Positions 25,527 through 43,724 of a stretch of DNA of 64,000 bases are shown here, in pieces. The first letter of the stretch is position 1. Every line of letters starts with the position of its first letter. Origin of the DNA: an uncultured Vicinamibacteraceae bacterium (GTDB taxonomy: Bacteria; Acidobacteriota; Vicinamibacteria; Vicinamibacterales; UBA8438). The notes beneath the pieces were generated by a model. That model searched no databases. It had not been told where the DNA came from and saw only the letters and a list, made by a program, of their open reading frames with translations. The translations under genes and the position numbers were made by a program. The DNA lies in the NCBI GenBank assembly GCA_964507425.1, contig CAZDQD010000036.1, forward strand, positions 3,848-67,847, given 5' to 3'.

Positions 25527-25534
25527 CGCTTCTC

Positions 25535-26416: not shown

Positions 26417-26491
26417 TGCTCCTCCTTGTCCGACGCCGTTACCGGCCCAATATACACTTTCTCCGGTGACCAACGGCTACATCCTCATCGG

Positions 26492-26572
26492 CAAATCGGC
26501 ACGGCCGGCTTCGTGCTCGCCAACCGTCTGTCGGCAGCCGCGCATGTGAGCACTCTGCTCCCGAAAGAGAAC
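26492..26572 (+). pseudogene. Relic of a GMC-family (choline dehydrogenase-like) oxidoreductase N-terminus
   Basis: This frame reads QIGTAGFVLANRLSAAAHVSTLLPKEN, compared with the GMC FAD-binding start (I)VGAGSAGCVLANRLSxxxxxxVLLLEAG. The GxGxxG motif is degraded and there is no gene body downstream. Confidence 0.5.
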
Positions 26573-26761
26573 TGGTTTACTCCTTCTAAAGAAGCGTGCC
26601 CAATATTCTGGCAGGAGCGAGGGCGTTGGAAGTGGCCGAGACACGATGACGCTTGATATCTGTTGGGTATCAAACCAGCTACGGTAAAGGGTATAACCCC
26701 CTTGAGGTCGCCATTGTCTCGTATCAGTTCCTCAACTGAGACGAGTATCACACTCAACAGT

Positions 26762-27619: not shown

Positions 27620-27725
27620 CGTGTTTCTCAAAACCCCGATTCGGTACCAACATGTATCGTGGGCCCAGGCTTCGTTTTCGGCCTTGGACTTGGGTTCAAG
27701 GCTCTGACCGATCGTGACTTCCAGT

Positions 27726-27908
27726 CTAGGGCAAGAGCTGCTGCTCGGCCAGGAACCCTCGAATCGCCGCAAATACCGAACGGCTTTCCTCCAGACTGAC
27801 GCCCCCGTGACCGCCGCCGGCGACGGTGTGCAATTGACTGACGCCCCCCTTGGCTTTAAGCGCCTCGTGCAGATCAACGCCATGCTGATACGGAACGATT
27901 GGGTCCGC
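27726..27908 (-). pseudogene. C-terminal relic of an alpha/beta hydrolase (dienelactone hydrolase / peptidase S9-type tail)
   Basis: DPIVPYQHGVDLHEALKAKGGVSQLHTVAGGGHGG...IRGFLAEQ is a typical Asp...His tail of an alpha/beta hydrolase. The nucleophile-bearing N-terminal part is missing. Confidence 0.5.
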
Positions 27909-27923
27909 ATCGTCGGTGTCGGA

Positions 27924-28100
27924 CTGGGCCAGCGAATCCTTGTACCGGATGTCGGGGTTCTTGATGCCGTGGAGCAGCATATTCATGCTCCCGATCCGCA
28001 GCATGGTGCTATCGAAGTCGAACCCGTGAAAAGTTTCGGCGCGGAAGCGGGCGCGACTCGCCGCCGTTTTGAACACCGTGTCGCTAATGAGGCTGAGTCT
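27924..28100 (-). pseudogene. hsdM: Internal relic of a type I restriction-modification methylase gene (hsdM)
   Basis: FHGFDFDSTMLRIGSMNMLLHGIKNPDIRYKDSL matches the conserved region of N6-adenine HsdM subunits. About 60 codons remain, read in the same frame as the hydrolase relic. There is no hsdS or hsdR nearby. Confidence 0.6.
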
Positions 28101-28941: not shown

Positions 28942-29034
<93 letters not shown>

Positions 29035-30427: not shown

Positions 30428-31759
30428 CTATTGGATGACCCACAGTTCACGTTGTGGGCCGGACAAATATTCTATGTTTCCATCGCTATGCACGATGGTG
30501 TCTTCCTCGCGCATGATCGTAATTGCTTGATTATTCCATTCCGGAACCGTTGTGGTTATAGAAAATTCTAACGAGATCCAGTCACCCGCGCGAAGCGGAA
30601 ATCGTGGGTGGGCGCCGTAACGTTCGGGCCAATCGAACGTCATCCAGACGCCGGCGTCGTGTACCCAGTTTCCCTGCGCATGTGAGTACATTAGGGCATC
30701 GATACCCTCATCAGCGGCACGTGATTCAGCAGACGTTTTGATGGCGCTTCCCGTACGGCCAACTCTGAATTCCTCAAGTGCGATAGCTGCCATCCGTTCC
30801 GACTGTGCGAAGGCCCTTTGCAGGCCGACGGGAATTTCTGTTTCATTTGGGTGCAGCACGTAGGCCATCTTTTGTTGGTCGGCAACAATGCCTGAACTCC
30901 GCACACCGAAATCGACATGTAACAGGTCGCCATGCGTGATCACGCTATCCGTGCCGTCATTAATCAGGTCTGACCCCACGCGTTGGAGGTCGACCGATGC
31001 AGGAAAGTTAAATTCGAAGCCTTGCCGTTTCCACTCAGCCGTAATCCAGTAGTGGACGTCCAGTAGCGTTGTACGGCCCGGTTCAATAACCTCGTTAGAC
31101 AGCGCCCGACGCAAAATTGCATATGTGGCGTTGCTGGCTTCACGTTCGATGGTTTCCTCGGCTGACGTGTGTGACGACACGTAGTCGATTACCAGTGGTT
31201 CGGACGAGACCAGCCGATTTCGATGTTCAGGTGCCAGTGTCTCGATGAGGTAACTCTTCAATTCGGCGGTGAGCCCGTCCGCCATACTGATGGTTCGCGA
31301 TTGGTTAATGGCAATCCTGTCTGGGTTTCGCGCGCTGACATAGCGCTCGAGATGTGGAGCGAGCCCTTCCTCGCCGTAGATAAACCTCGTACTAAAAAAA
31401 CGGGCGAGATGGTCGCTCAAATGTGTCCCAATGGCCGTCGTTTCAAGTTCACCATCTTCAGGAGCGTAGAAAAGATAGGCGTTACGCTGGCCGTACCATC
31501 CGGTTATGCCGTAGCCACCGAACAGCTCAAGCAGTGGATCGGGGGCATTTTCTCGACTGAGGATGATCCACAGGTCAATGTCATGTGCCTGCATGGCGGG
31601 AAGCAAATGTTGAGACATTTTTTCTGCCTTAACAGTCCATTCCCGTTCAGTGCGAGCACGCACAAGAGCAGGTGTGATTTGTGCGACTAGCTGAGCACAG
31701 GTACAAACCCAAACGGATACGATCAGAATAGTTCGTATTGCAGCCAATTTAATGTCCAC
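30428..31759 (-). CDS. M24-family metallopeptidase-like protein (Xaa-Pro peptidase / creatinase fold), exported
   Basis: Signal-like N-terminus. The C-terminal half has the pita-bread pattern (HGDLLHVDFGV..., YSHAQGNWVHD..., ISLEFS..., IMREEDTIV). GTG start. Confidence 0.5.
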   Translation of the reverse strand: MDIKLAAIRTILIVSVWVCTCAQLVAQITPALVRARTEREWTVKAEKMSQHLLPAMQAHDIDLWIILSRENAPDPLLELFGGYGITGWYGQRNAYLFYAPEDGELETTAIGTHLSDHLARFFSTRFIYGEEGLAPHLERYVSARNPDRIAINQSRTISMADGLTAELKSYLIETLAPEHRNRLVSSEPLVIDYVSSHTSAEETIEREASNATYAILRRALSNEVIEPGRTTLLDVHYWITAEWKRQGFEFNFPASVDLQRVGSDLINDGTDSVITHGDLLHVDFGVRSSGIVADQQKMAYVLHPNETEIPVGLQRAFAQSERMAAIALEEFRVGRTGSAIKTSAESRAADEGIDALMYSHAQGNWVHDAGVWMTFDWPERYGAHPRFPLRAGDWISLEFSITTTVPEWNNQAITIMREEDTIVHSDGNIEYLSGPQRELWVIQ

Positions 31760-31783: not shown

Positions 31784-32914
31784 TTATTGCGTGTAAGTAA
31801 TTCGGTAAATTGTGTTGGCGGTGTCATCGCTGACCAGTAACGCGCCGTCTGGCATCACTTGTACATCGACAGGGCGGCCCCACGCTTCATTGTTATCTTG
31901 CAGCCAACCCTCGGCAAAGACGTCGTAGCCTACGACTTGGTTTCCATCGAGTCGTGCAACGGTTAACCGATAGCCCGTATGACCCGCTTCTGCTGTGCGA
32001 TTCCATGAGCCATGTTCAGCGATAAAAATTTCATTGCGATACGACCCTGGAAACATGTTGCCCGTGTAGAACTCCATGCCGAGTGACGCCACGTGTGGCC
32101 CGAGACGCTGGGCTGGCGGACGAAACTCGCTACACGGTCTGGTGTTGAATTCAGGGTCCTGAATGTTGCCCTGGTGGCAAAACGGGAAACCAAAATGCAA
32201 GCCAGTACTCGGTGCGTGGTGCAAGGTGTCGGCGGGTTCTGTATCACCGAGCCTGTCACGTCCGTTGTTGGTAAACCACAATTCGTCGGTGGTTGGGTGC
32301 CAGTCAAATCCGACGGAGTTGCGAACTCCGTGAGCGTAGATCGTCAGGTCGGAGCCATCCGGCTGCATACTCAGGATGGTCGCAAACCGAGGGTCTGTTT
32401 CTTCGTTGTCACAGATATTGCATGGCGCCCCGACTGGAACGTACAGGCGGCCGTCCGGACCGAAATCAATGAATTTCCATCCATGCGCCCGTTCGGTCGG
32501 TAGCGTGTCGTTAACTACGACGGGCTCCGGGGGTGCCGTGAGTTGTGATTCGATTTCGTCATATCGCAAGATGCGGTTTATCTCTGCGACGTATAACGAC
32601 CCATTTCGAAAGGCTACACCGTTTGGCATGTTAAGACCGCTGTCAAGCGTGAGCACACGGTCAGCAGTCTGATCGCCGTTATCATCCACGACGGCATAAA
32701 CATTGCCAGCCTGTCGTGTGCTCACAAACAAGGTTCCATTTGGACTAAGTGCCATTTGGCGAGCGTTAGGGACGTTAGCGGCGTACACCTCAATCGAAAA
32801 TCCTGGCGGTAGTGTCAGTCTTTCAAGTGGTGGTTCGCTCGGTCCAGTCTGTGCGAGAAGTACTGAGCTACACGTGACTACAAGGATGGAGACGGCTAGC
32901 CGCTTTATGGTCAT
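31784..32914 (-). CDS. PQQ-dependent sugar dehydrogenase (soluble glucose/sorbosone dehydrogenase, YliI-like)
   Basis: Signal peptide. PNGVAF.NGSLYVAE, HGWKFIDFGPDGRLYVPVGAPCNIC, HGVRNSVGFDWHP.TDELWFTNNGRD. AAGGAAG SD. Confidence 0.75.
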   Translation of the reverse strand: MTIKRLAVSILVVTCSSVLLAQTGPSEPPLERLTLPPGFSIEVYAANVPNARQMALSPNGTLFVSTRQAGNVYAVVDDNGDQTADRVLTLDSGLNMPNGVAFRNGSLYVAEINRILRYDEIESQLTAPPEPVVVNDTLPTERAHGWKFIDFGPDGRLYVPVGAPCNICDNEETDPRFATILSMQPDGSDLTIYAHGVRNSVGFDWHPTTDELWFTNNGRDRLGDTEPADTLHHAPSTGLHFGFPFCHQGNIQDPEFNTRPCSEFRPPAQRLGPHVASLGMEFYTGNMFPGSYRNEIFIAEHGSWNRTAEAGHTGYRLTVARLDGNQVVGYDVFAEGWLQDNNEAWGRPVDVQVMPDGALLVSDDTANTIYRITYTQ

Positions 32915-32933: not shown

Positions 32934-35849
32934 TTAATACCGAAACAGGTATTGCATTTTCATAAAGATTGCACGATTTGTTTGTTGATAGGCGGTGGTC
33001 ATCGGAAAAAACGGCTCGTCAATTCCATCACCATCGATATCACCCAATAAATGGTCGGCCTGCTGATAGTGGTCGTCGTACCCGAGATAGAACGCCGTGC
33101 CTGCATTTAATCGATAGGTGCCGAGCCAGTTCATACCAACCGTCTCTGCGAACGTGTTGTACTCCGCGATACTTCGGACCGAAAATCGGTCCGTGAATTG
33201 ATAGGTACTCAGTGCGCGTAGGATCTTCACGTCGAACAACAATTCATCTCCGGTACGAGCATCGATAAAGTCGCTGGTGCTCAGATTGATTTCCGATTGA
33301 AATCTTGAAACCGGACGTGCTGTTGCGTAGAAACTTCCAGTACTGCCGCGTCCCAGAAACGGGGTGTCCGTGTAGCGAACTTCGTCACCGTAGCGATAGT
33401 AGCCACCGATGCCGAAGCGACGGCTCGTATTTATCTGTCCCCCGAGTGAGACCGCTTCTTTTTCAAAGTTAATTCCGCCGTATCTTTCCATTTCGTCTCT
33501 GAACGAAGCGTTAACACTGATATTTCGAGCAAAAGTCGCATCAACCCCCAAACGAACCTCTTCGTCCTCAAACACGTTGTTGAAATTATGGTTCCAACTG
33601 TACCGCACGGCTGGTCCCCAGTTGATTAGCCAACTTTCGGGCCAAAAGGTATAGCCGAGTCGAGTAAACCCTCGTTTCTGGTCGACTCGACGGACAAAGC
33701 CGACGTCGGTACGAAAGTCAGGCGACAGTGTGTAGATGGATGCGAAACTGCTCCAATGACGGCTGTTTAACCGCCATGAGAGGTTGAACATTTGTCCTTG
33801 ACGTTCAATGCCGTCAAGGTCTCGATGGTCGGTCTGGACGGCTTTGAACGCTAGGCCTTGTGTCTGGCCTATTCGAAAATTGCCGTCTAAGCCTCCGAGG
33901 GTGCTATGACTTTCCATGAAATCGCGATGCGTCACAATTGCGCCAACAAAGGACTCCGCGTACAGGTCATATCGCGCACGCCCAACAACGTTGTTTGCCT
34001 TCTGGCCGAAAGACGCGTCCTTTGTGCTGGCGGTTCGGCCTGGCGCTTCGTCGTTTGCAACCATCATTCCAATGGTCGTGTTCCCAACTTTTCCCGTTAT
34101 CTTTCCCCCAAATTCTGGGTCAACAATGGTTCGTGTGTTTACGAACGTCACTAACCCTGGTGATGGAGAAAAAATTTCGGCACCTTCCAGAAAGAAGGGA
34201 CGCAGCTCTGGATAAAAAAGTGCGTACCGTTGGTTAACCTCTATTTGGGGAAGGTCAGACTCGATCTGTGAGAAGTCGGGATTGTACGTAAAGTCGGCCG
34301 TAAGATTTGATGTGATGCCGTACTTTACGTTGACACCACCCTCTGGAGTAGGGTCGCCGTCACTAAAGACCCCTTGGGCGTCGAGTGAGCCAAATTGCGT
34401 TGCCGTAAACGTGGGCATGATCTCGAGGTTTCTGCTGAGCGACAGATTCGTCATACCTTCAAGTAGTCCTACTTGAGTGAGAAAACCGGAGACGTTTCTC
34501 GTGATCGGTGCCCAAACCTGAAACTCATCTTTACTACGAACTTCTCGGACGATCTGAAAGCCCCATCGGTGTGGAATGCCAGTCTCACGTTGTGGATAGC
34601 GGAGACTCTTAAATGGGATGGCGACCTCGACCGTGTAGCCATCATCCACAATCTGACCATCACTGTCGAATAAGGCATCCCACGATGAATCTCCAGCCGG
34701 AATGCTATTCCGGTAGAAGCTACCACTACTGCCCGTTCGGCGACGGCGACCACCACTGCGGCCTGAACCACGTGCGTTCACAATGGCATCGCCCTGCACG
34801 CCGTAGCCATTAACGGAGAAGCGGTAGGCACGTTGCTGGTCTAGAAAGGTGTCAAAGAAAAATGCGATATTGTCATCATCAAACGCCTGATCGCGGTCAA
34901 CTCGATTTGCCCGCATGATATCGGGGTCTGCGTAGTGTGCGTGCACAGCAACGTAGATGTTCTGGCTATCGTAGGTTAGCCACACGTCGGTATCTTCTGT
35001 TGCAGGTGCCCCTTCTATTGGATTTTGTTGAACGAATTCGGTTAGATGTAGTGCGTCTCGCCAGGCAGCGTCATCGAGACGGCCATCGATCTGTGGTCGG
35101 GTGCTGGAGCGAGCAGGACGTATTGTTGGGCGGCCTGTAAGAATGCCAACGCCTTCTGCGACTCCGAATCCGGCTGTTTGTTCAGGGTTCTCGACGATTA
35201 GCCCACCCCCGGCCGGGTTCGACAACGGTGACGAAACAAATTCACCGGAAGCAACGTTCTCGGTTGGTGGGAGCCGCGTGACCAGTTCTGCCGTCGACGG
35301 CGCGTTGCTTAGTGACAGCAGACCGGTGGTGAGCGCTACAGCAATCTCATCCTGCAATGAAAAAATGTCGGAGACAGATCCGTCGACTTTGACTACGTTT
35401 TGAATACTTCCGTCCCTAGCACTAAGGATACGTGCGGTGATACGAAGTTGCTCTCCGAGCTTTTGGTAGCTACCGCTTACTAGCCACCCGGCGCCACGCC
35501 TCTGACTACGGTCCAGCAACATTCGCTCCACAGTTGCGATGTCTATCTGGTTAGCAGCAGTAGTTTTCGTGATGGAATAGTCGTTAAGGTGCTGCAGGTC
35601 GACGAATAAGCTTTCAGCGATGCCTTGCCCGATCCATGAATCCGCGCGGTCGCCAGAAATGTTTAGGAACGGTGCGAGAATGACGCTGCGGAGATCAAGT
35701 TGCATAGCCGGTACCGATTCAAGGTCACCCTCTTGTTGGGCGTACATCGGCTCAGTCATGAAAGACATGAGAAAAAGCAAAATACACATAGCGGCACAGC
35801 GAGACTGTGTTCTAGAGTGCCTCGCGCGTAGCATTTTTAACGCCGACAT
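32934..35849 (-). CDS. 971-aa outer-membrane-type protein: N-terminal TolB-N-like (COG5616-type) domain, CBM9/DOMON-like domain and DUF5916-like beta-rich region
   Basis: Signal peptide. Residues about 53-178: VILAPFLNISGDRADSWIGQGIAESL...WLVSGSYQKLGEQLRITARIL...KVDGSVSDIFSLQDEIA. Then PQIDGRLDDAAWRDA...FDDDNIAFFFDTF...YRFSVN (CBM9-like). A long Gly/aromatic-rich region follows, ending ...MQYLFRY. Confidence 0.65.
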   Translation of the reverse strand: MSALKMLRARHSRTQSRCAAMCILLFLMSFMTEPMYAQQEGDLESVPAMQLDLRSVILAPFLNISGDRADSWIGQGIAESLFVDLQHLNDYSITKTTAANQIDIATVERMLLDRSQRRGAGWLVSGSYQKLGEQLRITARILSARDGSIQNVVKVDGSVSDIFSLQDEIAVALTTGLLSLSNAPSTAELVTRLPPTENVASGEFVSSPLSNPAGGGLIVENPEQTAGFGVAEGVGILTGRPTIRPARSSTRPQIDGRLDDAAWRDALHLTEFVQQNPIEGAPATEDTDVWLTYDSQNIYVAVHAHYADPDIMRANRVDRDQAFDDDNIAFFFDTFLDQQRAYRFSVNGYGVQGDAIVNARGSGRSGGRRRRTGSSGSFYRNSIPAGDSSWDALFDSDGQIVDDGYTVEVAIPFKSLRYPQRETGIPHRWGFQIVREVRSKDEFQVWAPITRNVSGFLTQVGLLEGMTNLSLSRNLEIMPTFTATQFGSLDAQGVFSDGDPTPEGGVNVKYGITSNLTADFTYNPDFSQIESDLPQIEVNQRYALFYPELRPFFLEGAEIFSPSPGLVTFVNTRTIVDPEFGGKITGKVGNTTIGMMVANDEAPGRTASTKDASFGQKANNVVGRARYDLYAESFVGAIVTHRDFMESHSTLGGLDGNFRIGQTQGLAFKAVQTDHRDLDGIERQGQMFNLSWRLNSRHWSSFASIYTLSPDFRTDVGFVRRVDQKRGFTRLGYTFWPESWLINWGPAVRYSWNHNFNNVFEDEEVRLGVDATFARNISVNASFRDEMERYGGINFEKEAVSLGGQINTSRRFGIGGYYRYGDEVRYTDTPFLGRGSTGSFYATARPVSRFQSEINLSTSDFIDARTGDELLFDVKILRALSTYQFTDRFSVRSIAEYNTFAETVGMNWLGTYRLNAGTAFYLGYDDHYQQADHLLGDIDGDGIDEPFFPMTTAYQQTNRAIFMKMQYLFRY
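35316..35693 (-). other. Protein-level domain copy 3: TolB-N-like domain at the N-terminus of the DUF5916 protein
   Basis: It shares the pattern h-h-h-x-F-x-N...G.AI...L...V.G.Q..G...R(I/V)TA(R/Q)(I/L)...KVDG...D...Q.E.A with the two copies in the adaptor tail. Confidence 0.6.
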
Positions 35850-35885
35850 GATTTATGGCTAATTTGTCTGATGCAACTTCAAGAC

Positions 35886-38800
35886 TCACGCTTCCGCGGT
35901 TCTTGCAGTGACTGGTTCGCCTGTTGTGATATTCGTGTCGGTGGCTGGTCTTTCTGTCAGGTCGTGACGCCCCAACATTCGACCCGTCATTCGACGAAAA
36001 TCGTCAAGAATCATGTACGAGATCGGCACAAGAAGCAGGGTGATAAAAGTGGCAAACAGTACACCAAACGCCAGTGACACAGCCATAGGTACGAGAAATG
36101 CCGCCTGCATGCTGCGTTCAAACATAATTGGCACGAGTCCAAAGAACGTTGTTAATGACGTTAGCAAGATGGGGCGAAAGCGGTTGCTTCCGGCCTGACG
36201 AACGGCAGCGAGGAGATTGTCGCGAATGCGTCGTTCCCGGTTGATAAAGTCGACCATCACAAGGCTATCGTTGACGACAACACCAGTCAGCGCCACCAGA
36301 CCGAACATCGACATTAACGTGACATCGAGTCCCATGAACATGTGCCCCCAGATTGCACCCACGAGGCCAAATGGAATCGCTCCCATAATGATGAAAGGTT
36401 GAACATACGATTTGAGTGGAATTGCAAGAAGGGCGAAGATCATAAATAACGCTAAAATAAAGCCGATTGTCAGACCTCCGACGGCGTCAGCTTGTTCGGC
36501 CTGCGCACCCTCAAAGGTGTAAAAAATACTAGGGTAGGTGGAGAGCACTTCCGGAAGAATCCGGTTTTCAAGGTCAGCGATCACTTGCTGGCCCGACGTG
36601 ATACTTGCGTCGACGGCCGCCGTGACGTTGACTGCGCGATTGCGGTTGACGCGCTTGATCGAGGCAAAGCCCCGTCCTGGTTCAACCAGCGCTACCTGGC
36701 TGAACGGGACCTCGCCACCGTCTGGCGTTCGGATACGCATACCTTCCAGGTCGCCAAGTGAACGACGGTCGTCACGCGGGTAACGCACCATAACGCGGAT
36801 ATCGTCTCGACCACGCTGAATGCGTTGTGCTTCCTCGCCGTAGAACGCCTGTCTAACTTGGCGCCCTAAATCTTGTAACGTCAGCCCGAGCTGTTCGGCG
36901 GCTGGCTTGATCCCCAGTTTCATTTCCTCTTTGCCGGCTCGAAACGAATCCGCGATCTGATACACGCCTGCATAGCCTGCAAGCTGTCGTTTGACTTCGT
37001 CGGCTGCTGCTCGTAGTCGCGTAATGTTGGGGCCTGAAAGTTGGACATTTACGTCCTCCCCTGGATTCATGATTGACATCCTGAAGTTAACCTCAACTGC
37101 TTCAGGAATTGCCGGTGTGGCGTCACGCCACATGAGGCCGAGTTGTTCACTCGTGTACGAGCGGGTTTCAGCCGGTGCGAGTTCAACCATGACTTCACCA
37201 AGGTTCGCAGAGGTTGCGCCTCGGATTCGACCCATCGGTCCTCCGCCACGTGATGCCATCGGTTGATCGCCAATTGCCGAGGACACATGTCGGACGTAAT
37301 CCATACCGGTTTCGTCCAAGAGCTGCGCTCGAAGTTCTGCGGCACCGGCTTCGAGCTTTGCGACGGCTTCACCGGTCGCTTCTACCGGTGTTCCTTGTGG
37401 CATCGTTAGGGAGGCGGACATAAAGTCGGCCTCAATCGAGGGAAAGAACCGAAAATTAGTCCATCCCCCAAGAACCATGCCAATGGTTAATATGAGTGTT
37501 GCAAACCCAACGGCCGATGTGAGGTAGCGCCATCGGACTGCCGCCTCAAGAAATGGTTCATAGAATTTTCGAATAAAAACCTTTAGTCCATTTGAGAACA
37601 GGCTTTGAAACCGACGCCATAATCCAGGTTTGCCTTGAGGTTTCATATGCGAGAGGTGAGCTGGAAGAATTCCGAGCGATTCCACGAGCGAGAAGAGTAA
37701 GCACGGGATCACGATAAGGGGGATCACGCGGAAAATTTTCCCCATCATTCCTGGAACGAACATGAGCGGCATGAATGCTGCAACCGTTGTGAGGACGGCA
37801 AAAATGACCGGTGTAGCAATTTCTTGGCCACCCTCGATCGAGCCCCGCATGCCGTCGCCGTGTCCTTCCTGGTGCCTATAGATGTTTTCTCCGACGATGA
37901 TTGCGTCGTCGACGACGATTCCTAAGACAAGAAGGAACGCGAACAGCGACATGACGTTGATGGAGACATCCCCAACAGGCATCAGGGCCATGGCTCCGAG
38001 AAAAGAAATGGGAATGCCAAGGCTGACCCAGAAAGCGAGTCGTAATTCAAGAAACAGAGCGAGAACGACAAACACAAGGATAAAACCCGTGGCGCCGTTC
38101 CGCAGCATGAGTGAAATTCGATCGTCGAGTACTTCTGATTGGTCTTGCCAAATTGTCAGCGAGATGCCTTCCGGTATTCGCGCGTTCTCGACGTAGTCGT
38201 GTACTGCGGCAGCGATTTCTAAGGCACTTTGGTCGCCTGTGCGGAACACTGAGACCATTACCGTAGGTTCAACATCGAATCGGGCGTACTGGTCTGTTTC
38301 TTCGAATCCATCAACAACGGTTGCCACATCGGCGAGTCGGAGACGGGTACCATCAGCCCGTGTCCAGACTACGAGGTTTTCGTATTCCTCACCTCGGTAT
38401 GCCTGGCCAATGGTTCGGAGTAAGATTTCACCGCTGTCGGTCCTGACTGACCCACCAGGAAGGTCCAGTGATGAACGTCGTACGGCATCAGCGACCTGGT
38501 CAAATGTCATGCCGTGGCGCCGTAAGGCCACTTCTGATACTTCGATTGAAATCTCGTAAGGAGGAGCGCTAACGATATCTACTTGTGTGATTTCAGGAAT
38601 TACGGAAAGTTCATCACGTACCTGTTCGGCGATTGTTTTGAGTGTAAAAGTGTCGACGTTGCCTGAGACTGCCAGGTCGGTGACCTGGTTTCGAGCCGTG
38701 AGTTCCTGAATGATAGGTTTTTCGGTTTCGACTGGAAACGTAGTGATCGCATCTACGTTGCTCTTTACTTCGTCGACGACTTTTCTGGGATCTGCACCAA

Positions 38801-39095
38801 GTTCGAGTTCGATCATTACGGAAGCCGAACCCTCAGAGGAGGTCGATTGCACTTCCTTGATGCCATCGAGTCCTTGGATGGCTTCCTCAATACGAACTGC
38901 GACAGCTTCCTCCACCTCTTCAGGTGCGGCACCTAAATACGGCACGGTGATGCTGATGCGGTCAAGCTCGATTTCTGGAAAGACTTCTTCAGTGACCGCC
39001 GTTGTGATCGCGAGAAATCCGCTGACAAGGATAAAGACCATCAAGAGGTTGGCAGCGACACTATTACGTGCCATCCATTCGATGATTCCCTTCAT
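35886..39095 (-). CDS. RND efflux transporter permease (AcrB/HAE-type)
   Basis: 1069 aa with a 12-TM, two-large-loop architecture. N-terminal MKGIIEWMARNSVAANLLMVFILVSG. The start overlaps the adaptor stop by 4 nt and is preceded by AGGAG. Confidence 0.95.
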   Translation of the reverse strand: MKGIIEWMARNSVAANLLMVFILVSGFLAITTAVTEEVFPEIELDRISITVPYLGAAPEEVEEAVAVRIEEAIQGLDGIKEVQSTSSEGSASVMIELELGADPRKVVDEVKSNVDAITTFPVETEKPIIQELTARNQVTDLAVSGNVDTFTLKTIAEQVRDELSVIPEITQVDIVSAPPYEISIEVSEVALRRHGMTFDQVADAVRRSSLDLPGGSVRTDSGEILLRTIGQAYRGEEYENLVVWTRADGTRLRLADVATVVDGFEETDQYARFDVEPTVMVSVFRTGDQSALEIAAAVHDYVENARIPEGISLTIWQDQSEVLDDRISLMLRNGATGFILVFVVLALFLELRLAFWVSLGIPISFLGAMALMPVGDVSINVMSLFAFLLVLGIVVDDAIIVGENIYRHQEGHGDGMRGSIEGGQEIATPVIFAVLTTVAAFMPLMFVPGMMGKIFRVIPLIVIPCLLFSLVESLGILPAHLSHMKPQGKPGLWRRFQSLFSNGLKVFIRKFYEPFLEAAVRWRYLTSAVGFATLILTIGMVLGGWTNFRFFPSIEADFMSASLTMPQGTPVEATGEAVAKLEAGAAELRAQLLDETGMDYVRHVSSAIGDQPMASRGGGPMGRIRGATSANLGEVMVELAPAETRSYTSEQLGLMWRDATPAIPEAVEVNFRMSIMNPGEDVNVQLSGPNITRLRAAADEVKRQLAGYAGVYQIADSFRAGKEEMKLGIKPAAEQLGLTLQDLGRQVRQAFYGEEAQRIQRGRDDIRVMVRYPRDDRRSLGDLEGMRIRTPDGGEVPFSQVALVEPGRGFASIKRVNRNRAVNVTAAVDASITSGQQVIADLENRILPEVLSTYPSIFYTFEGAQAEQADAVGGLTIGFILALFMIFALLAIPLKSYVQPFIIMGAIPFGLVGAIWGHMFMGLDVTLMSMFGLVALTGVVVNDSLVMVDFINRERRIRDNLLAAVRQAGSNRFRPILLTSLTTFFGLVPIMFERSMQAAFLVPMAVSLAFGVLFATFITLLLVPISYMILDDFRRMTGRMLGRHDLTERPATDTNITTGEPVTARTAEA

Positions 39096-41461
39096 GGCTG
39101 ACTCCTGTGTGAAATCGTAGACACGCTATTTTCGGTGCGTGTCGTGACAAGGTTATTAGCAATGGTTTGAGTAACGCTTTCTGCGACGGCGGCTGCGAGC
39201 TGTTCCTGTAACTCGGCTAAGTCTGTGGCTGTACCGTCCACCTTAAACGCACGAATGACTGAATTACTTGCCGTTTCTATCAGCTGTGCCGTTACCCGTA
39301 CGACGTCGCCGATTCGTTGGATCCCACCGCCAATTATTAAACTGGCTCGGGTCTCCGAGTCGACGATCGCCACCGATGACAAATTGGCTAGTTGTGCTGT
39401 CACCGCACTTGTAATGGCGTCGCCCAGATTTATGTTGGTAGTTCGATCGTTGTCGGCTGGACCATTCAGTTGCTCGAATGGTCGTATTGCGAGTGTCTGA
39501 ACGTTACTAGTTCTCGTTGTTTCGCTTTGATTGTCGAGCAGTAGGACATGCTTGTAAACGGCTTCTGCTACTTCGGATTGAACCTTGACACGATCTTCAA
39601 TCGCTCCGTCAACCTTTAGTGCGTGAAGTACGGCGCTGCTGTCGCTGTCGACTATTCGAGCTGTGACACGGACGCTTGGTCCTACGGTCTGAATGCCGCC
39701 ACTAACGACGTAACGCGCGTCAGCCTGTTCACTCGCCAGCGCAAGATTGTCCGATTCGCGAAGACGAGTAGTGATCGCGCGACCGAGAGCTGCGCCAAAC
39801 TCCATGTTGTCTGTCGTGGGATTTAAATTGGCAAACGTAAGTACCGTGATTGCGTTTTGTGGCACGAGACGTTCAGTCGCTTCTGTTGTTGCGGGAGGCA
39901 TGGGAATGGGAGTTGCAGCCACCTCGGCCACGGTTGAAGATTCGTTAGCCTCCGTAACGGCGGTGTCGACCGTTGATGCAGGCGCTTCTCTTGTGGCAGG
40001 TTCCGCCGTGTTTTGTTCTGTCGAGGCGTCTGCAGCAGGTGGGTCACTTGGCCGTATTCGAGTGTCACGGACGGACCGCTCTCTTGTGTTTTCGGCTGTG
40101 AGCGAATCAAGCCATGCGGGTCGGCTGACCGGGCTGGTTGCCTCGGCGTCCGAATTAGCGTCGGCAGTGGCGAATGAAGGGGTCTCGTCAGGGAGGATGG
40201 TGGTTGCAGGACTCGCTATAGCGGACGTATCGGTCGGTCGTGTTGGCGTGTCAACTGGACTGCTTTGAATTCTCGCCAACACGTCCGGATCGAGATCTGC
40301 GAACTGCACTTGCATGCCATCGGTTGGTGTGTCGAGGGGGGAGATGACGACAAGCTCTCCCTCGTCTAGGCCGCCACGCACAAACACGGCGTCTGTTGTC
40401 GCACGGAACACGTCGATATCTCTGAAACTTATTCGCTCATCTCGTGAAACGACCAGAACCTGTTGGCGGCCGCGCAGTGCCGCTCGTGGCACCAAAGCTA
40501 TATTTTGTGCCGTCCGTCCCTGAATTTCAGCTTCGACATACATACCGACGGCTAGCGGTGGTTGGTTGGGATTAGCGCTTGCGGCGTAAGGGTCTCTGAC
40601 CTCGGCTACGACGTGCACCATGCGACTGACGGGATCAATTTCGCTTTCGGTGCGAACGATACGTCCTTGCCATTCGTGTGTTTCACCAGCAAACGTTGCT
40701 CTCAATGTGACAGTCGGTTGGGGCTGCCTGTCGCCACCGCGGTATGACAAAGGTAGGTCAAGGTAAGCGATTTGGTCGTCCGGCAACGGTAGGCGCACTT
40801 CAGCGACGTCAACGGAATACACCGTCGCGACGGCGTCCCCAATCCGCACGAACTGACCGATATCAACATTCTTTTGCCGAATGCGACCAGCATATGGCGC
40901 AACGATGTCTGCACGTTCGAGATCACGTTCGGCTCGAGTGACGTTCGCCTCTGCGGCTGCTACTGAAGCCCGTGCGTCGTCTAGTTGTGGTTTCCGAAGT
41001 GTTAGTTCTCGAGGGTCTCCTCGACCCAGGTCGTTCCATTCGCGTTCGGCGACTTCGGCTTCCGCTTCTTCCTGGGCCAGTTGCAGACGCGCTTGTGCGA
41101 GTTGTGACCGAGCGCTGACCAGTGCCTGTTCGTAGTCAAATGGATCAATCTTTACAAGCACGTCACCAGCTTCAAAAAACCCACCTTCCGCGAATGACGG
41201 GGAGACCCACGTAATTCGTCCTGCGATTTCGGGGATAAGTTGACTTTCGGTACGCGGACGGACCGTACCCTGACTCGACACACTCATCGGTACTTCACGT
41301 AATTGGACCTCGTGTACGCGCACTCCGGGTGGCTCAAAAACAGGCGTCTGCGTTTCGACCGGTGGTCTGTTGCGAACCATTGTGAGTGCCCCGAATGCTG
41401 CTGCTGCGAGTACAACGAGGGGCAGCATGATTTGTAGTGTTCGAATAATGACGCGCTTCAT
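39092..41461 (-). CDS. RND periplasmic adaptor (MFP/HlyD family) with a roughly 400-aa C-terminal extension
   Basis: Residues 1-390: TM anchor, lipoyl/hairpin/beta-barrel pattern (GRITWVSPSFAEGGFFEAGDVLVKIDP..., coiled-coil ARLQLAQEEAEAEVAE..., IVAPYAGRI...). Residues about 391-530 are a P/T/A/S/E-rich linker. Residues about 534-640 and 653-765 are two copies of a TolB-N-like domain. Confidence 0.85.
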   Translation of the reverse strand: MKRVIIRTLQIMLPLVVLAAAAFGALTMVRNRPPVETQTPVFEPPGVRVHEVQLREVPMSVSSQGTVRPRTESQLIPEIAGRITWVSPSFAEGGFFEAGDVLVKIDPFDYEQALVSARSQLAQARLQLAQEEAEAEVAEREWNDLGRGDPRELTLRKPQLDDARASVAAAEANVTRAERDLERADIVAPYAGRIRQKNVDIGQFVRIGDAVATVYSVDVAEVRLPLPDDQIAYLDLPLSYRGGDRQPQPTVTLRATFAGETHEWQGRIVRTESEIDPVSRMVHVVAEVRDPYAASANPNQPPLAVGMYVEAEIQGRTAQNIALVPRAALRGRQQVLVVSRDERISFRDIDVFRATTDAVFVRGGLDEGELVVISPLDTPTDGMQVQFADLDPDVLARIQSSPVDTPTRPTDTSAIASPATTILPDETPSFATADANSDAEATSPVSRPAWLDSLTAENTRERSVRDTRIRPSDPPAADASTEQNTAEPATREAPASTVDTAVTEANESSTVAEVAATPIPMPPATTEATERLVPQNAITVLTFANLNPTTDNMEFGAALGRAITTRLRESDNLALASEQADARYVVSGGIQTVGPSVRVTARIVDSDSSAVLHALKVDGAIEDRVKVQSEVAEAVYKHVLLLDNQSETTRTSNVQTLAIRPFEQLNGPADNDRTTNINLGDAITSAVTAQLANLSSVAIVDSETRASLIIGGGIQRIGDVVRVTAQLIETASNSVIRAFKVDGTATDLAELQEQLAAAVAESVTQTIANNLVTTRTENSVSTISHRSQP
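39167..39505 (-). other. Protein-level domain copy 2 in the adaptor tail (TolB-N-like)
   Basis: VQTLAIRPFEQLNGPADN...LIIGGGIQRIGDVVRVTAQLIETASNSVIRAFKVDGTATDLAELQEQLAAAVAESV. Confidence 0.6.
39542..39862 (-). other. Protein-level domain copy 1 in the adaptor tail (TolB-N-like)
   Basis: NAITVLTFANLNPTTDNMEFGAALGRAI...YVVSGGIQTVGPSVRVTARIVDSDSSAVLHALKVDGAIEDRVKVQSEVAEAVYKHV. Confidence 0.6.
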
Positions 41462-41489
41462 TATGAATGTTCCGTTTCTGTATCTACGG

Positions 41490-42929
41490 CTAATTAGCCG
41501 TGTTTCTGTCTAGCAAAGAGTCAAGTTGTTCAAAGCCTCCACCCAAGGCGAGATAAAGATCGACGCGGTTATCGAGGCGTAGTCGACGTGCCGCAATTAG
41601 ATCTGATTCGGCTTGGAAGGCGGACCGCTGCGAATCAAGAACGGTGATGTACGTGTCGAGCCCCGTGTTGTATCTTTCGTCGGCAAGACGTTCGGCGGCT
41701 CGTGCCTGTGTAACGGAGTTAGTTAGATGTTCGGCACGGTCATTGAGAAATTGTTCGGCTGCAAGAGCTGTTTCGACCTCCGAGTAAGCGAGCAGAGCCG
41801 TGTTGACGTAGGTTGCAAGAATCTCGGCCACTAGTGCTTCCGCCCGACTGACTTGGGCTCTGAGGCGTCCACCTTGCCATAAGGGGGCTACGACGTTGCC
41901 GACGAGACCCCAAACACTAAAGTCACCGTTGAGAAGTGACTTCAATGCGTTTGTCGAAGTCCCTGTGTTAGCGGTGAGACTGATTGTTGGTAGAAGCTCG
42001 CGACGCGCAACCTGCAGCCGGGCTTCGGACGCAGCCACGGCGCGCTCGGCGGCGACGAGATCCGGGCGTCGAGAGACGAGGTCGGCAGGCAGTCCACCCG
42101 GAACGTTCGATGGTGTCGCAGGAAGGTTCTCAGGCGTTGGCAACGTACCATCTGCGTAACGTCCTAACAAAACGTCGAGTTGACGTCTGGACGCGTCGAG
42201 CTGTTGCCTTCGTTGGTCAAGTTGGGCTTCAGCATTGGATACGTTGAGTAATGCAAGACGAAGATCGAGCGCTGGACGTATTCCTGCCTCGAACCTGTCT
42301 CTCACTCGCTCCGACGATTCAAGGAAATTAGCGACCGTTGCCTCAGACAAGGACACTTGTTGCTGTGCCTCAGCGATAGCGAACCATGCCTTTGCAGTTT
42401 GACCTGCAATGGAGAGTTGAGCACCTCGGAGTTCAGCGGCCGAGCGTTGTAATTCAGCTAGCGCCGCTTGTTCTCCTGCTCTTAGCTTGCGCCATAGGTC
42501 GACCTCCCATGAAATATCAAATGAGCTCGACTGGTTAGTAAATACGGTGCTGAGAACACGGTCTTCTGCGCCTGGAATGGGAAAGCCCACGAAGTTTTGC
42601 TTTCTGCGGATACCGTTGTAGGACGCCTGAAGTGATGGCATGAGTGCACCACCGGCGATACGCGCATCGAACGCAACTTGTTCAAGTCGTGCTGCAGCTG
42701 CCTGGAGGTCGTAGTTCTGGTCTATGGCAGTTTCAACTGCCGAAGAGAGTCCATCATCACTGAAGTCACGCCACCAATCGATGGAGACGTTTCCATCTTC
42801 TAGTTCGTTTCCGGTCCATCCTTCTGGCACGGCCATGGCTAGTTCCGGGACTTCAACTGGTGGTGCGGTGGCACATCCAGCGACAACTCCAACGGCAACG
42901 ACAACTGATAACAGCCGGATGGTAAACAT
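41490..42929 (-). CDS. Efflux outer-membrane factor lipoprotein (NodT/OprM family)
   Basis: Lipobox VVAGC. LVSRRPDLVAAERAVAASEARLQVARRELLPTISL and the duplicated TolC-like repeat pattern. The start overlaps the TetR stop (TAATG). Confidence 0.9.
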   Translation of the reverse strand: MFTIRLLSVVVAVGVVAGCATAPPVEVPELAMAVPEGWTGNELEDGNVSIDWWRDFSDDGLSSAVETAIDQNYDLQAAAARLEQVAFDARIAGGALMPSLQASYNGIRRKQNFVGFPIPGAEDRVLSTVFTNQSSSFDISWEVDLWRKLRAGEQAALAELQRSAAELRGAQLSIAGQTAKAWFAIAEAQQQVSLSEATVANFLESSERVRDRFEAGIRPALDLRLALLNVSNAEAQLDQRRQQLDASRRQLDVLLGRYADGTLPTPENLPATPSNVPGGLPADLVSRRPDLVAAERAVAASEARLQVARRELLPTISLTANTGTSTNALKSLLNGDFSVWGLVGNVVAPLWQGGRLRAQVSRAEALVAEILATYVNTALLAYSEVETALAAEQFLNDRAEHLTNSVTQARAAERLADERYNTGLDTYITVLDSQRSAFQAESDLIAARRLRLDNRVDLYLALGGGFEQLDSLLDRNTAN

Positions 42930-43582
42930 TATGTTTTGGGATTCTCTTGAGAAGTTGGAGTAGCTGACATTCCTGCAGAAACATATGCAGAGAGCAACTC
43001 AATCACTTCTGAAGGGTCTCGGTTTAAATTTTCATCACGTTGTTTTAGGGTCTCACCCCATGACATGGTGAAAGCCATTGAACCCGTCATGAACAGCATG
43101 CGCCAGGCAAGGTCTTTCGATGGTGCGTTCGGGAGAGCCCGTTGGAATGCTGTGAAAAACCGCTGGAGAACAACGTCGAACTGCTGCATGAAGGTTTCTC
43201 GGAATTCCTGACTGGTCTCGCCGTGAACGCGCCCGAGGACACGGAAAAATGTTGTGCCTTGTGCGCCCCAATCCTTTCTCTTTGCAAATGGTGGCTCTAG
43301 AAATGCACGGACGATATCTTCGACACTCAACACTTTGTCTTCAGTCTGAGACTCGAGTCTGTCTAGTTTAGCGAGCCGAAGTTCGTTGATTGGTTCTAAA
43401 CGTCTTTCGAGCACCGCAGCAAGTAACGCTTCCTTTGAGCCAAAGTGATAGTTCACCGATGCGATGTTGGCATTTGCCTCTTTGGTGATATCCCGTAACG
43501 AGGTTCCAAGAAAGCCATGGTCGCCAAATAGCCTCTCCGCAACGTCGAGAATCCTAGTTTTAGTGTTAGCTAGTGATGACAT
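42929..43582 (-). CDS. TetR/AcrR-family transcriptional regulator
   Basis: TRILDVAERLFGDHGFLGTSLRDITKEANANIASVNYHFGSKEALL (TetR HTH). It is the first gene of the co-directional efflux cluster. Confidence 0.9.
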   Translation of the reverse strand: MSSLANTKTRILDVAERLFGDHGFLGTSLRDITKEANANIASVNYHFGSKEALLAAVLERRLEPINELRLAKLDRLESQTEDKVLSVEDIVRAFLEPPFAKRKDWGAQGTTFFRVLGRVHGETSQEFRETFMQQFDVVLQRFFTAFQRALPNAPSKDLAWRMLFMTGSMAFTMSWGETLKQRDENLNRDPSEVIELLSAYVSAGMSATPTSQENPKT

Positions 43583-43606
43583 ACTCTCACCATGAAACAG
43601 TTGTTT

Positions 43607-43624
43607 AAATCATACGTATGATTT
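43607..43624. promoter_or_regulatory. Perfect 18-bp palindrome, candidate TetR operator
   Basis: AAATCATACGTATGATTT is an exact inverted repeat (9+9). It lies 25 nt upstream of the TetR start codon, in the divergent intergenic region. Confidence 0.5.
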
Positions 43625-43724
43625 GTGCTCGAAGTAAAGCGAATAAAGGATTTTTGGAGTTTGGGCAAGGAATGCTAGTTTTTAGGAGGAGTTGTGGTGG
43701 TAACGCAAGGCTACTGAGAGGAAT

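What the first reader, a model, noticed from the sequence alone, without database searches (positions are those of the whole stretch)
32934..43624. TetR-headed RND efflux operon coupled to a CBM9/DUF5916 outer-membrane-type protein through a shared TolB-N-like domain
Seen in sequence: the TetR, NodT-type OMF, MFP adaptor and RND pump genes are overlapped or tightly spaced on the minus strand. The junctions are TAATG (TetR/OMF), a 28-nt gap (OMF/adaptor) and ATGA (adaptor/pump). A 971-aa gene follows after only 36 nt. The adaptor is about twice the normal length. After a canonical roughly 390-aa MFP core it has a P/T/A/S/E-rich linker and two copies of a roughly 110-aa domain. The same domain, including the near-invariant R(I/V)TA(R/Q)(I/L) and KVDG strings, forms the N-terminus of the downstream 971-aa protein. 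That protein otherwise looks like a CBM9/DOMON module followed by a DUF5916 beta-rich region ending in an aromatic residue.

Established knowledge: tripartite RND systems need only OMF, MFP and RND components. Domains of this type (COG5616, 'TolB amino-terminal-like') usually appear as periplasmic N-terminal modules of TPR or cyclase proteins, and their function is unknown.

Inference: the shared domain may mediate a homotypic or common-partner contact. That contact would tether the pump to a second outer-membrane component, giving a four- or five-component envelope machine rather than a plain drug pump. I know of no description of this arrangement.
Basis: partly seen in the sequence, partly recalled or inferred. 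Interest (0 to 1): 0.8.

Follow-up and report, generated by a model that had tools for sequence, protein, structure and literature searches.

The report
Efflux adaptor with FlgO/TolB-like tail
An ordinary four-gene drug-efflux operon, whose adaptor protein has an unusual tail of two FlgO/TolB-N/PelC-like domains, lies next to an outer-membrane barrel gene with one copy of that domain, but the two are neighbours only in this narrow lineage, so the proposed pump-to-barrel machine is not supported.

Summary
This covers the gene order, the TAATG, 28-nt, ATGA and 36-nt junctions, the 789-aa adaptor with a linker and two roughly 110-aa domains, and one copy of that domain at the N-terminus of the 971-aa CBM9/DUF5916 protein. 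The domain belongs to the FlgO family (PF17680) and has a TolB-N/PelC fold.

- TetR-OMF-long adaptor-RND is conserved across Vicinamibacteria. None of 44 informative genome loci has a DUF5916 gene after the pump. In 48 of 80 loci the next gene is a convergent redoxin gene.
- The FlgO-CBM9-DUF5916 gene usually sits before a GSDH-like gene and an M24 peptidase gene, as in the window.
- RND-DUF5916 adjacency occurs only in the window's own lineage (relatives at 80-86% identity).
- The domain is promiscuous. It matches 62,121 protein clusters, mostly TPR, cyclase or BTAD proteins.
- The three copies belong to separate old orthologous groups.

What remains new is a clade-wide adaptor variant with one to three C-terminal FlgO-like domains. 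I found no description of it. Its role is inferred, not shown: probably docking or forming a collar near the outer membrane.

The parts
43609..43638 (-). Sigma-70-like promoter match upstream of the TetR gene (TTTACT-18-TATGAT)
   Evidence: Consensus scan. It matches 9 of 12 positions. The scan found no more sites than in shuffled sequence, so this is only a candidate.
42929..43582 (-). TetR-family repressor gene (217 aa, PsrA-like C-terminal domain)
   Evidence: PF00440 E 7e-16 and PF17939 TetR_C_30 E 6e-26. NF053516 PsrA scores 150 bits, below its cutoff of 300. Its stop overlaps the OMF start as TAATG.
41490..42929 (-). NodT-type outer-membrane factor gene (479 aa, lipoprotein)
   Evidence: TIGR01845 at 315 bits against a cutoff of 210. 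OEP domains. Lipobox VVAGC near the N-terminus.
40292..41461 (-). Adaptor (MFP) core, residues 1-390: N-terminal membrane anchor plus the canonical adaptor domains
   Evidence: TIGR01730 at residues 47-386, 159 bits against a cutoff of 94.9. Hydrophobic N-terminus without a Cys. The core has many invariant columns across 26 homologues.
39857..40291 (-). Adaptor linker, residues 391-535: A/T/P/S/E/D-rich and variable, with a conserved RPxWL motif
   Evidence: Composition. Variable length and the conserved RP(A/E)WL..L motif are seen in alignment A1.
39536..39856 (-). Adaptor tail domain 1 (residues 536-642), FlgO/TolB-N/PelC-like
   Evidence: Family profile hit. PF17680 E 4e-6. AlphaFold model pLDDT 94.6. 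Foldseek finds PelC at 5e-7 and TolB at 1e-6.
39161..39499 (-). Adaptor tail domain 2 (residues 655-767), FlgO/TolB-N/PelC-like
   Evidence: Family profile hit at E 4e-33. It forms a separate orthologous class from domain 1.
35886..39095 (-). RND inner-membrane pump gene (1069 aa)
   Evidence: PF00873 E 8e-169. Its start overlaps the adaptor stop as ATGA.
35850..35885 (-). 36-nt spacer between the RND gene and the DUF5916 gene, which is a synteny breakpoint
   Evidence: Sequence. No terminator or promoter consensus. The same ATG and spacer occur in the 80%-identity relative L083. In 48 of 80 other loci a convergent redoxin gene occupies this position.
35310..35690 (-). N-terminal FlgO-like domain of the 971-aa protein (residues 54-180), following a signal peptide
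   Evidence: Family profile at E 4e-28. PF17680 at 20.8 bits, just below the cutoff of 22.6. pLDDT is 81-91 in the full-length model.
34587..35090 (-). CBM9/DOMON-like beta-sandwich (residues 254-421)
   Evidence: PF06452 E 5e-8, 33.5 bits against a cutoff of 23.4.
32937..34427 (-). DUF5916 region (residues about 475-971): predicted large beta-barrel ending in ...YLFRY
   Evidence: PF19313 E 1e-12. About 20 long antiparallel strands at residues 580-966 with pLDDT 70-89. Foldseek hits are LptD, TonB-dependent transporters and ushers at low TM-score.
31784..32914 (-). GSDH/DUF7133-like beta-propeller gene, the usual downstream partner of the DUF5916 gene in its closer relatives (19-nt gap)
   Evidence: Pfam. 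The same gene follows DUF5916 homologues in L081, L082, L083, L087-L090 and L091-L097.
30428..31759 (-). M24 metallopeptidase gene, third gene of the DUF5916 block (24-nt gap)
   Evidence: Pfam. The same position is conserved in relatives.

Best explanation
Two independently conserved gene modules lie end to end on the minus strand.

Module A is a TetR-regulated tripartite RND efflux operon (TetR, NodT-type lipoprotein OMF, adaptor, RND pump) typical of Vicinamibacteria (Acidobacteriota). Its membrane-anchored adaptor carries a clade-wide C-terminal addition: a roughly 100-250-aa disordered linker and usually two small alpha/beta domains. These belong to the FlgO family and have the TolB-N/PelC fold.

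Module B is a secreted FlgO-like / CBM9 / DUF5916 large outer-membrane beta-barrel gene. In its closer relatives this gene is followed by a GSDH-like propeller gene and an M24 peptidase gene.

In the window's narrow lineage, a rearrangement put module B where most relatives have a convergent redoxin gene. The 36-nt spacing may allow read-through transcription there, but it does not mark an ancestral functional unit.

The shared domain is a widespread periplasmic building block, not a specific link between the two proteins.

Inferred mechanism (not shown): solved relatives of this fold (PelC on PelB, FlgO in the Vibrio H-ring) assemble at the periplasmic face of outer-membrane structures. I therefore propose that the adaptor tail reaches up from the membrane-proximal domain on its long linker. 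There it would dock or oligomerise near the outer membrane or the OMF. Six adaptors with two domains each would give twelve domains, the PelC number. This would stabilise or position the assembled pump. The N-terminal copy in the DUF5916 protein would do the analogous job on its own barrel.
For: Shown:
- Gene calls and family assignments.
- All 121 top adaptor homologues carry 1-3 tail domains: 106 have two, 11 have three, 4 have one.
- All 80 best genome loci are labelled Vicinamibacteria, Vicinamibacterales or Acidobacteria, apart from two loci with other MAG labels, and most keep the TetR-OMF-MFP-RND order.
- None of 44 informative loci has DUF5916 after the pump. 48 of 80 have a convergent redoxin gene there, and the window has none.
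- A 58%-identity marine relative keeps the upstream synteny but has the redoxin gene downstream.
- DUF5916 homologues at 59-87% identity are followed by GSDH and M24 genes, and several are preceded by HMGL and Iso_dh genes.
- Adjacency to RND is seen only in L083 (80% adaptor identity) and L093 (86% DUF5916 identity).
- Domain identity and fold.
- Promiscuity of the domain: 62,121 clusters. Of the top 150, only 9 are adaptors and 5 are DUF5916 proteins.
- The three copies fall into separate orthologous classes.
- Tail-less adaptor paralogues exist, for example L037 in the same genome as tailed L007, which fits an accessory role.

Basis for the inferred mechanism:
- PelC forms a 12-mer ring on the PelB barrel (PMC12141448).
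- FlgO forms an outer-membrane-anchored C58 ring (bioRxiv 10.64898/2025.12.02.691832).
- Adaptors with extra C-terminal domains are known, for example SilB (PMC4446572).
Against: - No experiment and no multimer model was available, so the docking or collar role is inference from fold analogy alone.
- Copy number varies from 1 to 3, so a fixed 12-mer is not required.
- PelC and Vibrio FlgO are lipid-anchored. These domains are not.
- TolB-N-fold proteins bind very different partners (TolA, PBP1B, LptD, PelB), so the fold does not predict the ligand.
- The tight 36-nt spacing is kept in the 80%-identity relative, so co-expression in this lineage may be real.
- The full-length DUF5916 model is only moderate (pLDDT 60.5).
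Confidence: 0.7

Rival explanations
1. The FlgO/TolB-N-like domains of the adaptor tail and of the DUF5916 protein contact each other or a common partner. This would physically tether the RND pump to a second outer-membrane barrel as a four- or five-component machine.
For: Same strand with a 36-nt gap and no terminator consensus. The spacing is kept in the 80% relative and in L093. The domain really is shared. Both families occur in the same Vicinamibacterales genomes, as shown by matching contig lengths of 3,972,991 and 7,387,952.
Against: Adjacency is absent in 44 of 44 informative adaptor loci and in 20 of 21 informative DUF5916 loci. In genomes that hold both genes they are not neighbours; in L082, for example, the DUF5916 genes lie about 50-70 kb from the L006 adaptor locus on the same 3.97-Mb contig. 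Each gene has its own conserved neighbours. The domain occurs in 62,121 clusters of many architectures. Window copies are only 24% identical between the two proteins and belong to separate old classes.
Confidence: 0.06
2. A neo-operon without physical coupling. In this lineage the rearrangement placed DUF5916, GSDH and M24 under read-through from the TetR-controlled efflux promoter. The seven genes would then be co-expressed but act separately.
For: Seven same-strand genes with gaps of -1, 28, -4, 36, 19 and 24 nt. No terminator-like site on the minus strand at the junction. The arrangement is kept between relatives that differ by 14-20% in protein sequence.
Against: No transcript data are available. 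The consensus scans are weak evidence, and Acidobacteriota promoters are poorly covered by a sigma-70 scan. Elsewhere the DUF5916 gene also sits tightly behind unrelated genes (a 95-nt gap after Iso_dh in L081 and a 33-nt gap after a paralogue in L082), so tight spacing is the norm in these genomes.
Confidence: 0.35
3. The adaptor tail is a ligand-binding or substrate-delivery module, like the CusF-like C-terminal domain of SilB, or a sensor, rather than a structural docking module.
For: There is precedent for accessory C-terminal domains on adaptors with a chaperone role (PMC4446572). The same domain sits in the presumed periplasmic parts of cyclase and BTAD/CadC-type signalling proteins. LptE-type relatives bind lipid (weak LptE Pfam hits in 7 of 24 copies).
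Against: No binding-site motif is known for this family. The closest solved folds (PelC, TolB-N, FlgO, LpoB) act through protein-protein contacts and rings. Two to three tandem copies on a long flexible tether fit a scaffold better than a delivery site next to the pump entrance.
Confidence: 0.15

Closest known systems
Tripartite RND efflux systems of the AcrAB-TolC / MexAB-OprM type with a TetR repressor
   Same: Same four parts and gene order logic: a TetR repressor, a NodT-type lipoprotein OMF, an adaptor with a canonical core (TIGR01730) and an ACR_tran pump, with translationally coupled junctions.
   Different: The adaptor is twice the normal length. It has a disordered linker plus two FlgO/TolB-N-like domains after the membrane-proximal domain. 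It is anchored by a transmembrane helix rather than a lipid. The substrate is unknown, and the NCBIfam equivalog models are all far below their cutoffs.
SilB-type adaptors with an extra C-terminal domain
   Same: A periplasmic adaptor carrying an accessory C-terminal domain that also exists as a separate module elsewhere (PMC4446572).
   Different: The SilB domain is a CusF-like metal-binding beta-barrel in heavy-metal pumps. Here the domain is an alpha/beta FlgO/TolB-N fold, present in tandem and separated by a long linker. No metal-pump signature is present: the CusA/CzcA model scores 302 bits against a cutoff of 701.
PelC, the dodecameric lipoprotein ring on the PelB outer-membrane barrel
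   Same: Best structural match to the tail domain (Foldseek E 5e-7, TM about 0.6). PelC is a small alpha/beta domain that works as a ring at the periplasmic face of an outer-membrane channel. Six adaptors with two domains each would give twelve copies.
   Different: There is no lipid anchor, no pel genes, and only about 20% sequence identity. The domains are fused to other proteins, and copy number varies from 1 to 3.
Vibrio FlgO (PF17680), an outer-membrane lipoprotein of the flagellar H-ring
   Same: Closest sequence family: 20 of 24 copies hit PF17680, and a profile hit to PDB 9yfg/9yds gives E 0.007. The beta-sheet plus two-helix core is the same.
   Different: FlgO is a free-standing lipoprotein with Cys16 lipidation that forms a C58 ring with FlgP around a flagellar motor. 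Here there is no lipobox, I saw no flagellar genes among the window ORFs I scanned, and the domain is part of an adaptor or a beta-barrel protein.
COG5616-type 'TolB amino-terminal-like' modules of TPR, cyclase and BTAD proteins
   Same: Same domain family. The nearest representatives of the profile are mostly such proteins, with up to 7 copies per protein.
   Different: Those proteins are signalling or TPR scaffolds. Fusion to an RND adaptor or to a CBM9/DUF5916 barrel is a different context.
CBM9/DUF5916 proteins (PF06452 + PF19313)
   Same: The 971-aa protein has both domains above the Pfam cutoffs. A sister family lacking the FlgO-like N-terminus is common in metagenomes, and some members are also followed by a GSDH-like gene.
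   Different: The Vicinamibacteria branch adds a signal peptide, a FlgO-like domain and a linker in front. No paper in the searched library mentions DUF5916.

Membership tests
Tripartite RND efflux system | Outer-membrane factor of the NodT/TolC family | tested here: met
   TIGR01845 at 315 bits against a cutoff of 210, and two OEP repeats.
Tripartite RND efflux system | Periplasmic adaptor (MFP) core | tested here: met
   TIGR01730 at 159 bits against a cutoff of 94.9, residues 47-386.
Tripartite RND efflux system | RND permease with 12 transmembrane helices and large periplasmic loops | tested here: met
   PF00873 covers residues 9-1030 of 1069, E 8e-169. All NCBIfam subfamily and equivalog models are below their cutoffs, so the subtype and substrate are not assigned.
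Tripartite RND efflux system | Efflux activity and substrate | not testable with these tools
   Needs genetics or biochemistry.
FlgO family (PF17680) | Sequence match above the Pfam gathering score | tested here: inconclusive
   The adaptor scores 29.1 bits against a cutoff of 22.6, which passes. The 971-aa protein scores 20.8 bits, which is just below. 20 of 24 isolated copies match at E up to 1, the best at 4e-8.
FlgO family (PF17680) | Free-standing outer-membrane lipoprotein with an N-terminal Cys | tested here: not met
   The domains are internal parts of larger proteins with no lipobox before them. For the Vibrio FlgO reference.
FlgO family (PF17680) | Flagellar H-ring context (flgP, flgT) | tested here: not met
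   No flagellar families were found among the ORFs I scanned around the locus. The conserved neighbours are efflux genes or GSDH and M24 genes.
TolB | N-terminal alpha/beta domain fold | tested here: met
   Foldseek against TolB structures gives E 1e-6 and TMq 0.66-0.69. PF04052 gives weak hits in 7 of 24 copies.
TolB | C-terminal six-bladed beta-propeller that binds Pal | tested here: not met
   Neither protein has a TolB propeller or WD40-like Pfam hit.
PelC | Fold similarity | tested here: met
   Top Foldseek hits are 5t11, 5t10 and 9h80, at E 5e-7 to 2e-5.
PelC | Lipoprotein encoded in a pel operon that forms a 12-mer ring on PelB | tested here: not met
   There is no lipobox and there are no pel genes nearby. 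The oligomeric state cannot be tested here.
CBM9/DUF5916 outer-membrane protein | PF06452 and PF19313 above the gathering scores | tested here: met
   33.5 bits against 23.4, and 47.8 bits against 22.6.
CBM9/DUF5916 outer-membrane protein | Outer-membrane beta-barrel (signal peptide, C-terminal aromatic residue, barrel fold) | tested here: inconclusive
   A signal-peptide-like N-terminus ends in MYA|QQ and the C-terminus is ...YLFRY. About 20 long strands are modelled at pLDDT 70-89. Foldseek finds LptD, TonB-dependent transporters and ushers at E 1e-7, but TM-scores are only 0.2-0.3 and the overall pLDDT is 60.5.

The most novel reading that the evidence does not exclude
The adaptor hexamer of this Vicinamibacteria pump displays twelve tethered PelC/FlgO-like domains. 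These would assemble into a collar at the inner face of the outer membrane around the OMF channel. That would make a built-in PelC-like ring on a tripartite efflux pump, a mode of outer-membrane anchoring not known for RND systems. The N-terminal copy on the DUF5916 barrel would play the same cap or plug role on its own barrel, as LptE does for LptD and PelC for PelB.
Probability: 0.2. Interest if true: 0.65.

Novelty: new variant of a known kind. Interest (0 to 1): 0.35.

Why it matters
The proposed multi-component envelope machine would have been a new kind of system, but the comparative evidence points to a lineage-specific juxtaposition of two separate modules. Something of moderate value remains. 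A whole bacterial class has efflux adaptors with a conserved PelC/TolB-N/FlgO-like tail, found in hundreds of genomes. If the tail docks the pump to the outer membrane or to the OMF, it would show a new way of stabilising tripartite pumps. It would also give a tractable handle on the function of a very large, uncharacterised periplasmic domain family with more than 60,000 protein clusters. The DUF5916 and GSDH-like gene pairing also offers a lead for an unstudied outer-membrane protein family.

Tried and rejected
- I searched for a TetR operator palindrome in 43560-43740 and found no inverted repeat.
- The sigma-70 and terminator scans found no more sites than in shuffled sequence, so they give only weak evidence about co-transcription.
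- Literature searches for DUF5916 (0 papers), for COG5616 / TolB-like / FlgO-like (nothing relevant), for Vicinamibacter + RND + efflux and for FlgO + efflux found no description of adaptor-FlgO fusions.
- The full-length DUF5916 model was only moderate (pLDDT 60.5). Its Foldseek hits support the class 'large outer-membrane barrel' and nothing more specific.
- I tested whether loci that seemed to lack RND were masked by runs of N or held pump remnants. Neither was the case.
- The cluster look-up, meant to find the taxonomic range of other adaptor-FlgO fusions, returned no organism names.
- I rejected recent domain exchange between the two neighbouring genes. The window copies are only 24% identical, and each groups with its own orthologues.
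- NCBI names one homologue 'FlgO family outer membrane protein'. I rejected FlgO orthology because the lipoprotein and flagellar-context criteria fail.


Full report
**1.

The minus strand carries the following ORFs:
- TetR, 42929-43582
- OMF, 41490-42929
- a 789-aa adaptor, 39092-41461
- an RND pump, 35886-39095
- a 971-aa ORF, 32934-35849

The junctions read from the sequence are TAATG, a 28-nt gap, ATGA and a 36-nt gap.

Profile searches confirm the families:
- TetR_N plus TetR_C_30
- a NodT-type OMF (TIGR01845, 315 bits against a cutoff of 210) with a VVAGC lipobox
- an adaptor core (TIGR01730, residues 47-386)
- ACR_tran (E 8e-169)
- CBM9_1 plus DUF5916 in the 971-aa protein

After residue 390 the adaptor has a 145-aa A/T/P/S-rich linker and two domain copies at residues 536-642 and 655-767. 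The 971-aa protein has one copy at residues 54-180, behind a signal-peptide-like N-terminus. The similarity is far beyond chance. BLASTP of the adaptor tail against the 971-aa protein gives E 3e-11 and 1e-9. A family profile gives E 1e-28 to 1e-33.

**2. What the domain is**

Twenty of 24 copies taken from diverse homologues match Pfam FlgO (PF17680). TolB_N, LptE, CsgG and DUF3280 give weaker hits. A profile search of PDB sequences finds the Vibrio 'FlgO domain-containing protein' (9yfg, 9yds) at E 0.007.

An AlphaFold model of adaptor domain 1 is confident (pLDDT 94.6). It has a four-stranded sheet (one N-terminal strand followed by three consecutive antiparallel strands) packed against two helices. 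Its best Foldseek matches are the PelC dodecamer (E 5e-7), the TolB N-domain (E 1e-6, TM 0.66-0.69), PelBC, GNA1162, LpoB and FlgT.

The family is very large. The profile matches 62,121 clusters at 50% identity with E up to 1e-3, and 17,577 clusters with E up to 1e-10. Some proteins carry up to seven copies. Of the best 150 representatives, only 9 are adaptors and 5 are DUF5916 proteins. Sampled others are BTAD/CadC-TPR arrays, cyclase-TPR proteins and a Calx-beta protein.

**3. The long-tailed adaptor is a clade-wide feature**

All 121 best adaptor homologues carry the tail: 106 have two copies, 11 have three and 4 have one. A scan of one genome per species returned 322 relatives. The best 80 loci are all labelled Vicinamibacteria, Vicinamibacterales or Acidobacteria, apart from two loci with other MAG labels. 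In 61 of them the adaptor ORF has the tail domains, and the TetR-OMF-adaptor-RND order is the rule. Tail-less paralogues also exist; L037 lies in the same genome as the tailed L007. The tail is therefore an accessory addition to a normal adaptor.

**4. The neighbourhood test**

Among the tailed-adaptor loci, 44 have a complete pump gene and at least 5 kb beyond it. None encodes a DUF5916 body anywhere in the locus. The 971-aa protein matches those loci only through its N-domain, against the adaptor tails. Instead, 48 of the 80 loci have a convergent redoxin-family gene within 600 nt of the last operon gene. The window has no homologue of that gene.

A marine relative with 58% adaptor identity keeps the window's upstream synteny. 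That synteny is the conserved 437-aa ORF followed by the Fer2 / MoCoBD / FAD-binding cluster. After its pump, however, come the redoxin, DcuC and related genes.

The converse also holds. Homologues of the 971-aa protein at 59-87% identity are, with a few exceptions in that range, followed by the same GSDH/DUF7133-like and M24 peptidase genes as in the window (31784-32914 and 30428-31759). Their upstream genes vary: HMGL plus Iso_dh, LysR, or a tandem paralogue.

In a metagenome scan, 21 FlgO-DUF5916 loci were informative upstream. One has an RND gene there, 7 have HMGL plus Iso_dh, and 13 have something else. That single locus (L093, 86% identity) belongs to the window's own lineage, as does L083 (80% adaptor identity). 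In L083 the same ATG follows the pump stop after the same short spacer.

The RND|DUF5916 junction is therefore a recent synteny breakpoint that joins two separately conserved blocks. It is not a conserved functional neighbourhood.

**5. The three domain copies are not specially related**

Adaptor domain 1, adaptor domain 2 and the DUF5916 N-domain form three orthologous classes. Identity is 51-59% within a class and 29-36% between classes. In the window, each adaptor copy is 24% identical to the DUF5916 copy. No other copy occurs in the window or in about 1.6 Mb of flanking sequence.

**6. The 971-aa protein**

The full-length model is moderate (pLDDT 60.5). It shows four parts:
- a confident FlgO-like domain (pLDDT 81-91)
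- a disordered linker at residues 183-244
- a beta-sandwich
- about twenty long antiparallel strands at residues 580-966 (pLDDT 70-89)

Foldseek returns LptD, TonB-dependent transporters and ushers at E 1e-7 to 1e-5, but with low TM-scores. This supports the class 'large outer-membrane barrel' and nothing more. A sister family lacks the FlgO-like N-terminus, and some of its members are also followed by a GSDH-like gene.

**7. Mechanism**

Shown: module A is a standard TetR-controlled tripartite pump with an extended adaptor. Module B is a secreted CBM9/DUF5916 barrel gene that sits with GSDH-like and M24 genes.

Inferred: the adaptor C-terminus leaves the membrane-proximal domain near the inner membrane. 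A disordered linker of roughly 100-250 aa could carry the two domains across the periplasm. Solved relatives of this fold work at outer-membrane structures. PelC forms a 12-mer ring on the PelB barrel (PMC12141448). FlgO forms a lipid-anchored C58 ring in the Vibrio H-ring (bioRxiv 10.64898/2025.12.02.691832). LptE, a weaker Pfam match to the same domain, is known from the literature to sit inside the LptD barrel; LptDE complexes are the top fold matches to the 971-aa model.

My best guess is that the tail docks or oligomerises near the OMF or the outer membrane and stabilises the pump. Six adaptors with two domains each would give twelve domains. I put this at about 0.3 on its own, or 0.2 for an actual ring. 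Arguments against it are the variable copy number, the lack of lipid anchors and the diverse partners of this fold. Accessory C-terminal domains on adaptors have a precedent in SilB (PMC4446572).

**8. Novelty and verdict**

I found no paper describing adaptor-FlgO fusions, and no paper on DUF5916. Databases name the adaptors simply as 'efflux RND transporter periplasmic adaptor subunit'.

The domain naming is supported. What is left is a new variant of a known kind, of moderate interest.

Noticed in passing
L065, L067, L070, L074, L075, L077, L078 (adaptor at about 10001-13000 in each): A Vicinamibacterales sub-lineage keeps the OMF and a roughly 1000-aa tailed adaptor but has no TetR gene, no RND gene and no remnant of either next to it. 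The convergent redoxin and DcuC genes come next instead: directly after the adaptor in L065, L074 and L075, but 0.9-2.8 kb further on in L070, L067 and L078. This is either an orphan adaptor-OMF pair or one that works with a transporter encoded elsewhere.
   Followed up: partly
L082 6866-13072; L100, L105, L111, L113, L114: FlgO-CBM9-DUF5916 genes often occur as tandem arrays of two or three paralogues (11 of the metagenome loci), usually between HMGL/Iso_dh genes and GSDH/M24 genes.
   Followed up: partly
L129-L170: A sister DUF5916 family lacks the FlgO-like N-terminal domain; matches begin at about residue 215-240 of the window protein. Five of 27 informative loci are still followed by a GSDH-like gene, so that pairing appears to be older than the FlgO fusion.
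   Followed up: partly
window 40120-40150 (adaptor residues about 447-455); alignment A1 columns about 513-525: A short motif, RP(A/E)WL..L, is conserved in the middle of the otherwise variable, disordered adaptor linker in most family members. It may be a short binding helix.
   Followed up: no
window 43725-45038 (+): A 437-aa ORF with no Pfam or NCBIfam hit is divergently transcribed from the TetR gene. Homologues sit in the same position in more than 20 related loci, so it is a conserved, uncharacterised neighbour of the efflux operon. In the window and in the marine relatives L083 and L085/L086, a Fer2 / MoCoBD / FAD-binding (xanthine-dehydrogenase-type) cluster lies beyond it.
   Followed up: partly
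window 22000-28000; tRNA-Ser at 28942-29034 (-): A segment with higher G+C (58-63% against about 52% elsewhere) lies next to a tRNA-Ser gene. It encodes a PQQ dehydrogenase, a xylose-isomerase-like TIM barrel, a metallo-beta-lactamase-fold protein and an LCM-type methyltransferase. It may be an acquired island.
   Followed up: partly
P0241 (2837 aa), P0242 (2283 aa), P0249 (1894 aa): Giant proteins carry 4-7 copies of the same FlgO-like domain interleaved with TPR arrays behind a BTAD/CadC-type N-terminus. They are the strongest matches to the domain profile in the 1.84-billion-protein library.
   Followed up: partly
L009 (JAKUTI010000222.1): A 4.2-kb contig carrying this Vicinamibacteria-type operon (64% adaptor identity) is deposited in a MAG labelled Pseudomonadales. 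This is probably a binning error.
   Followed up: no
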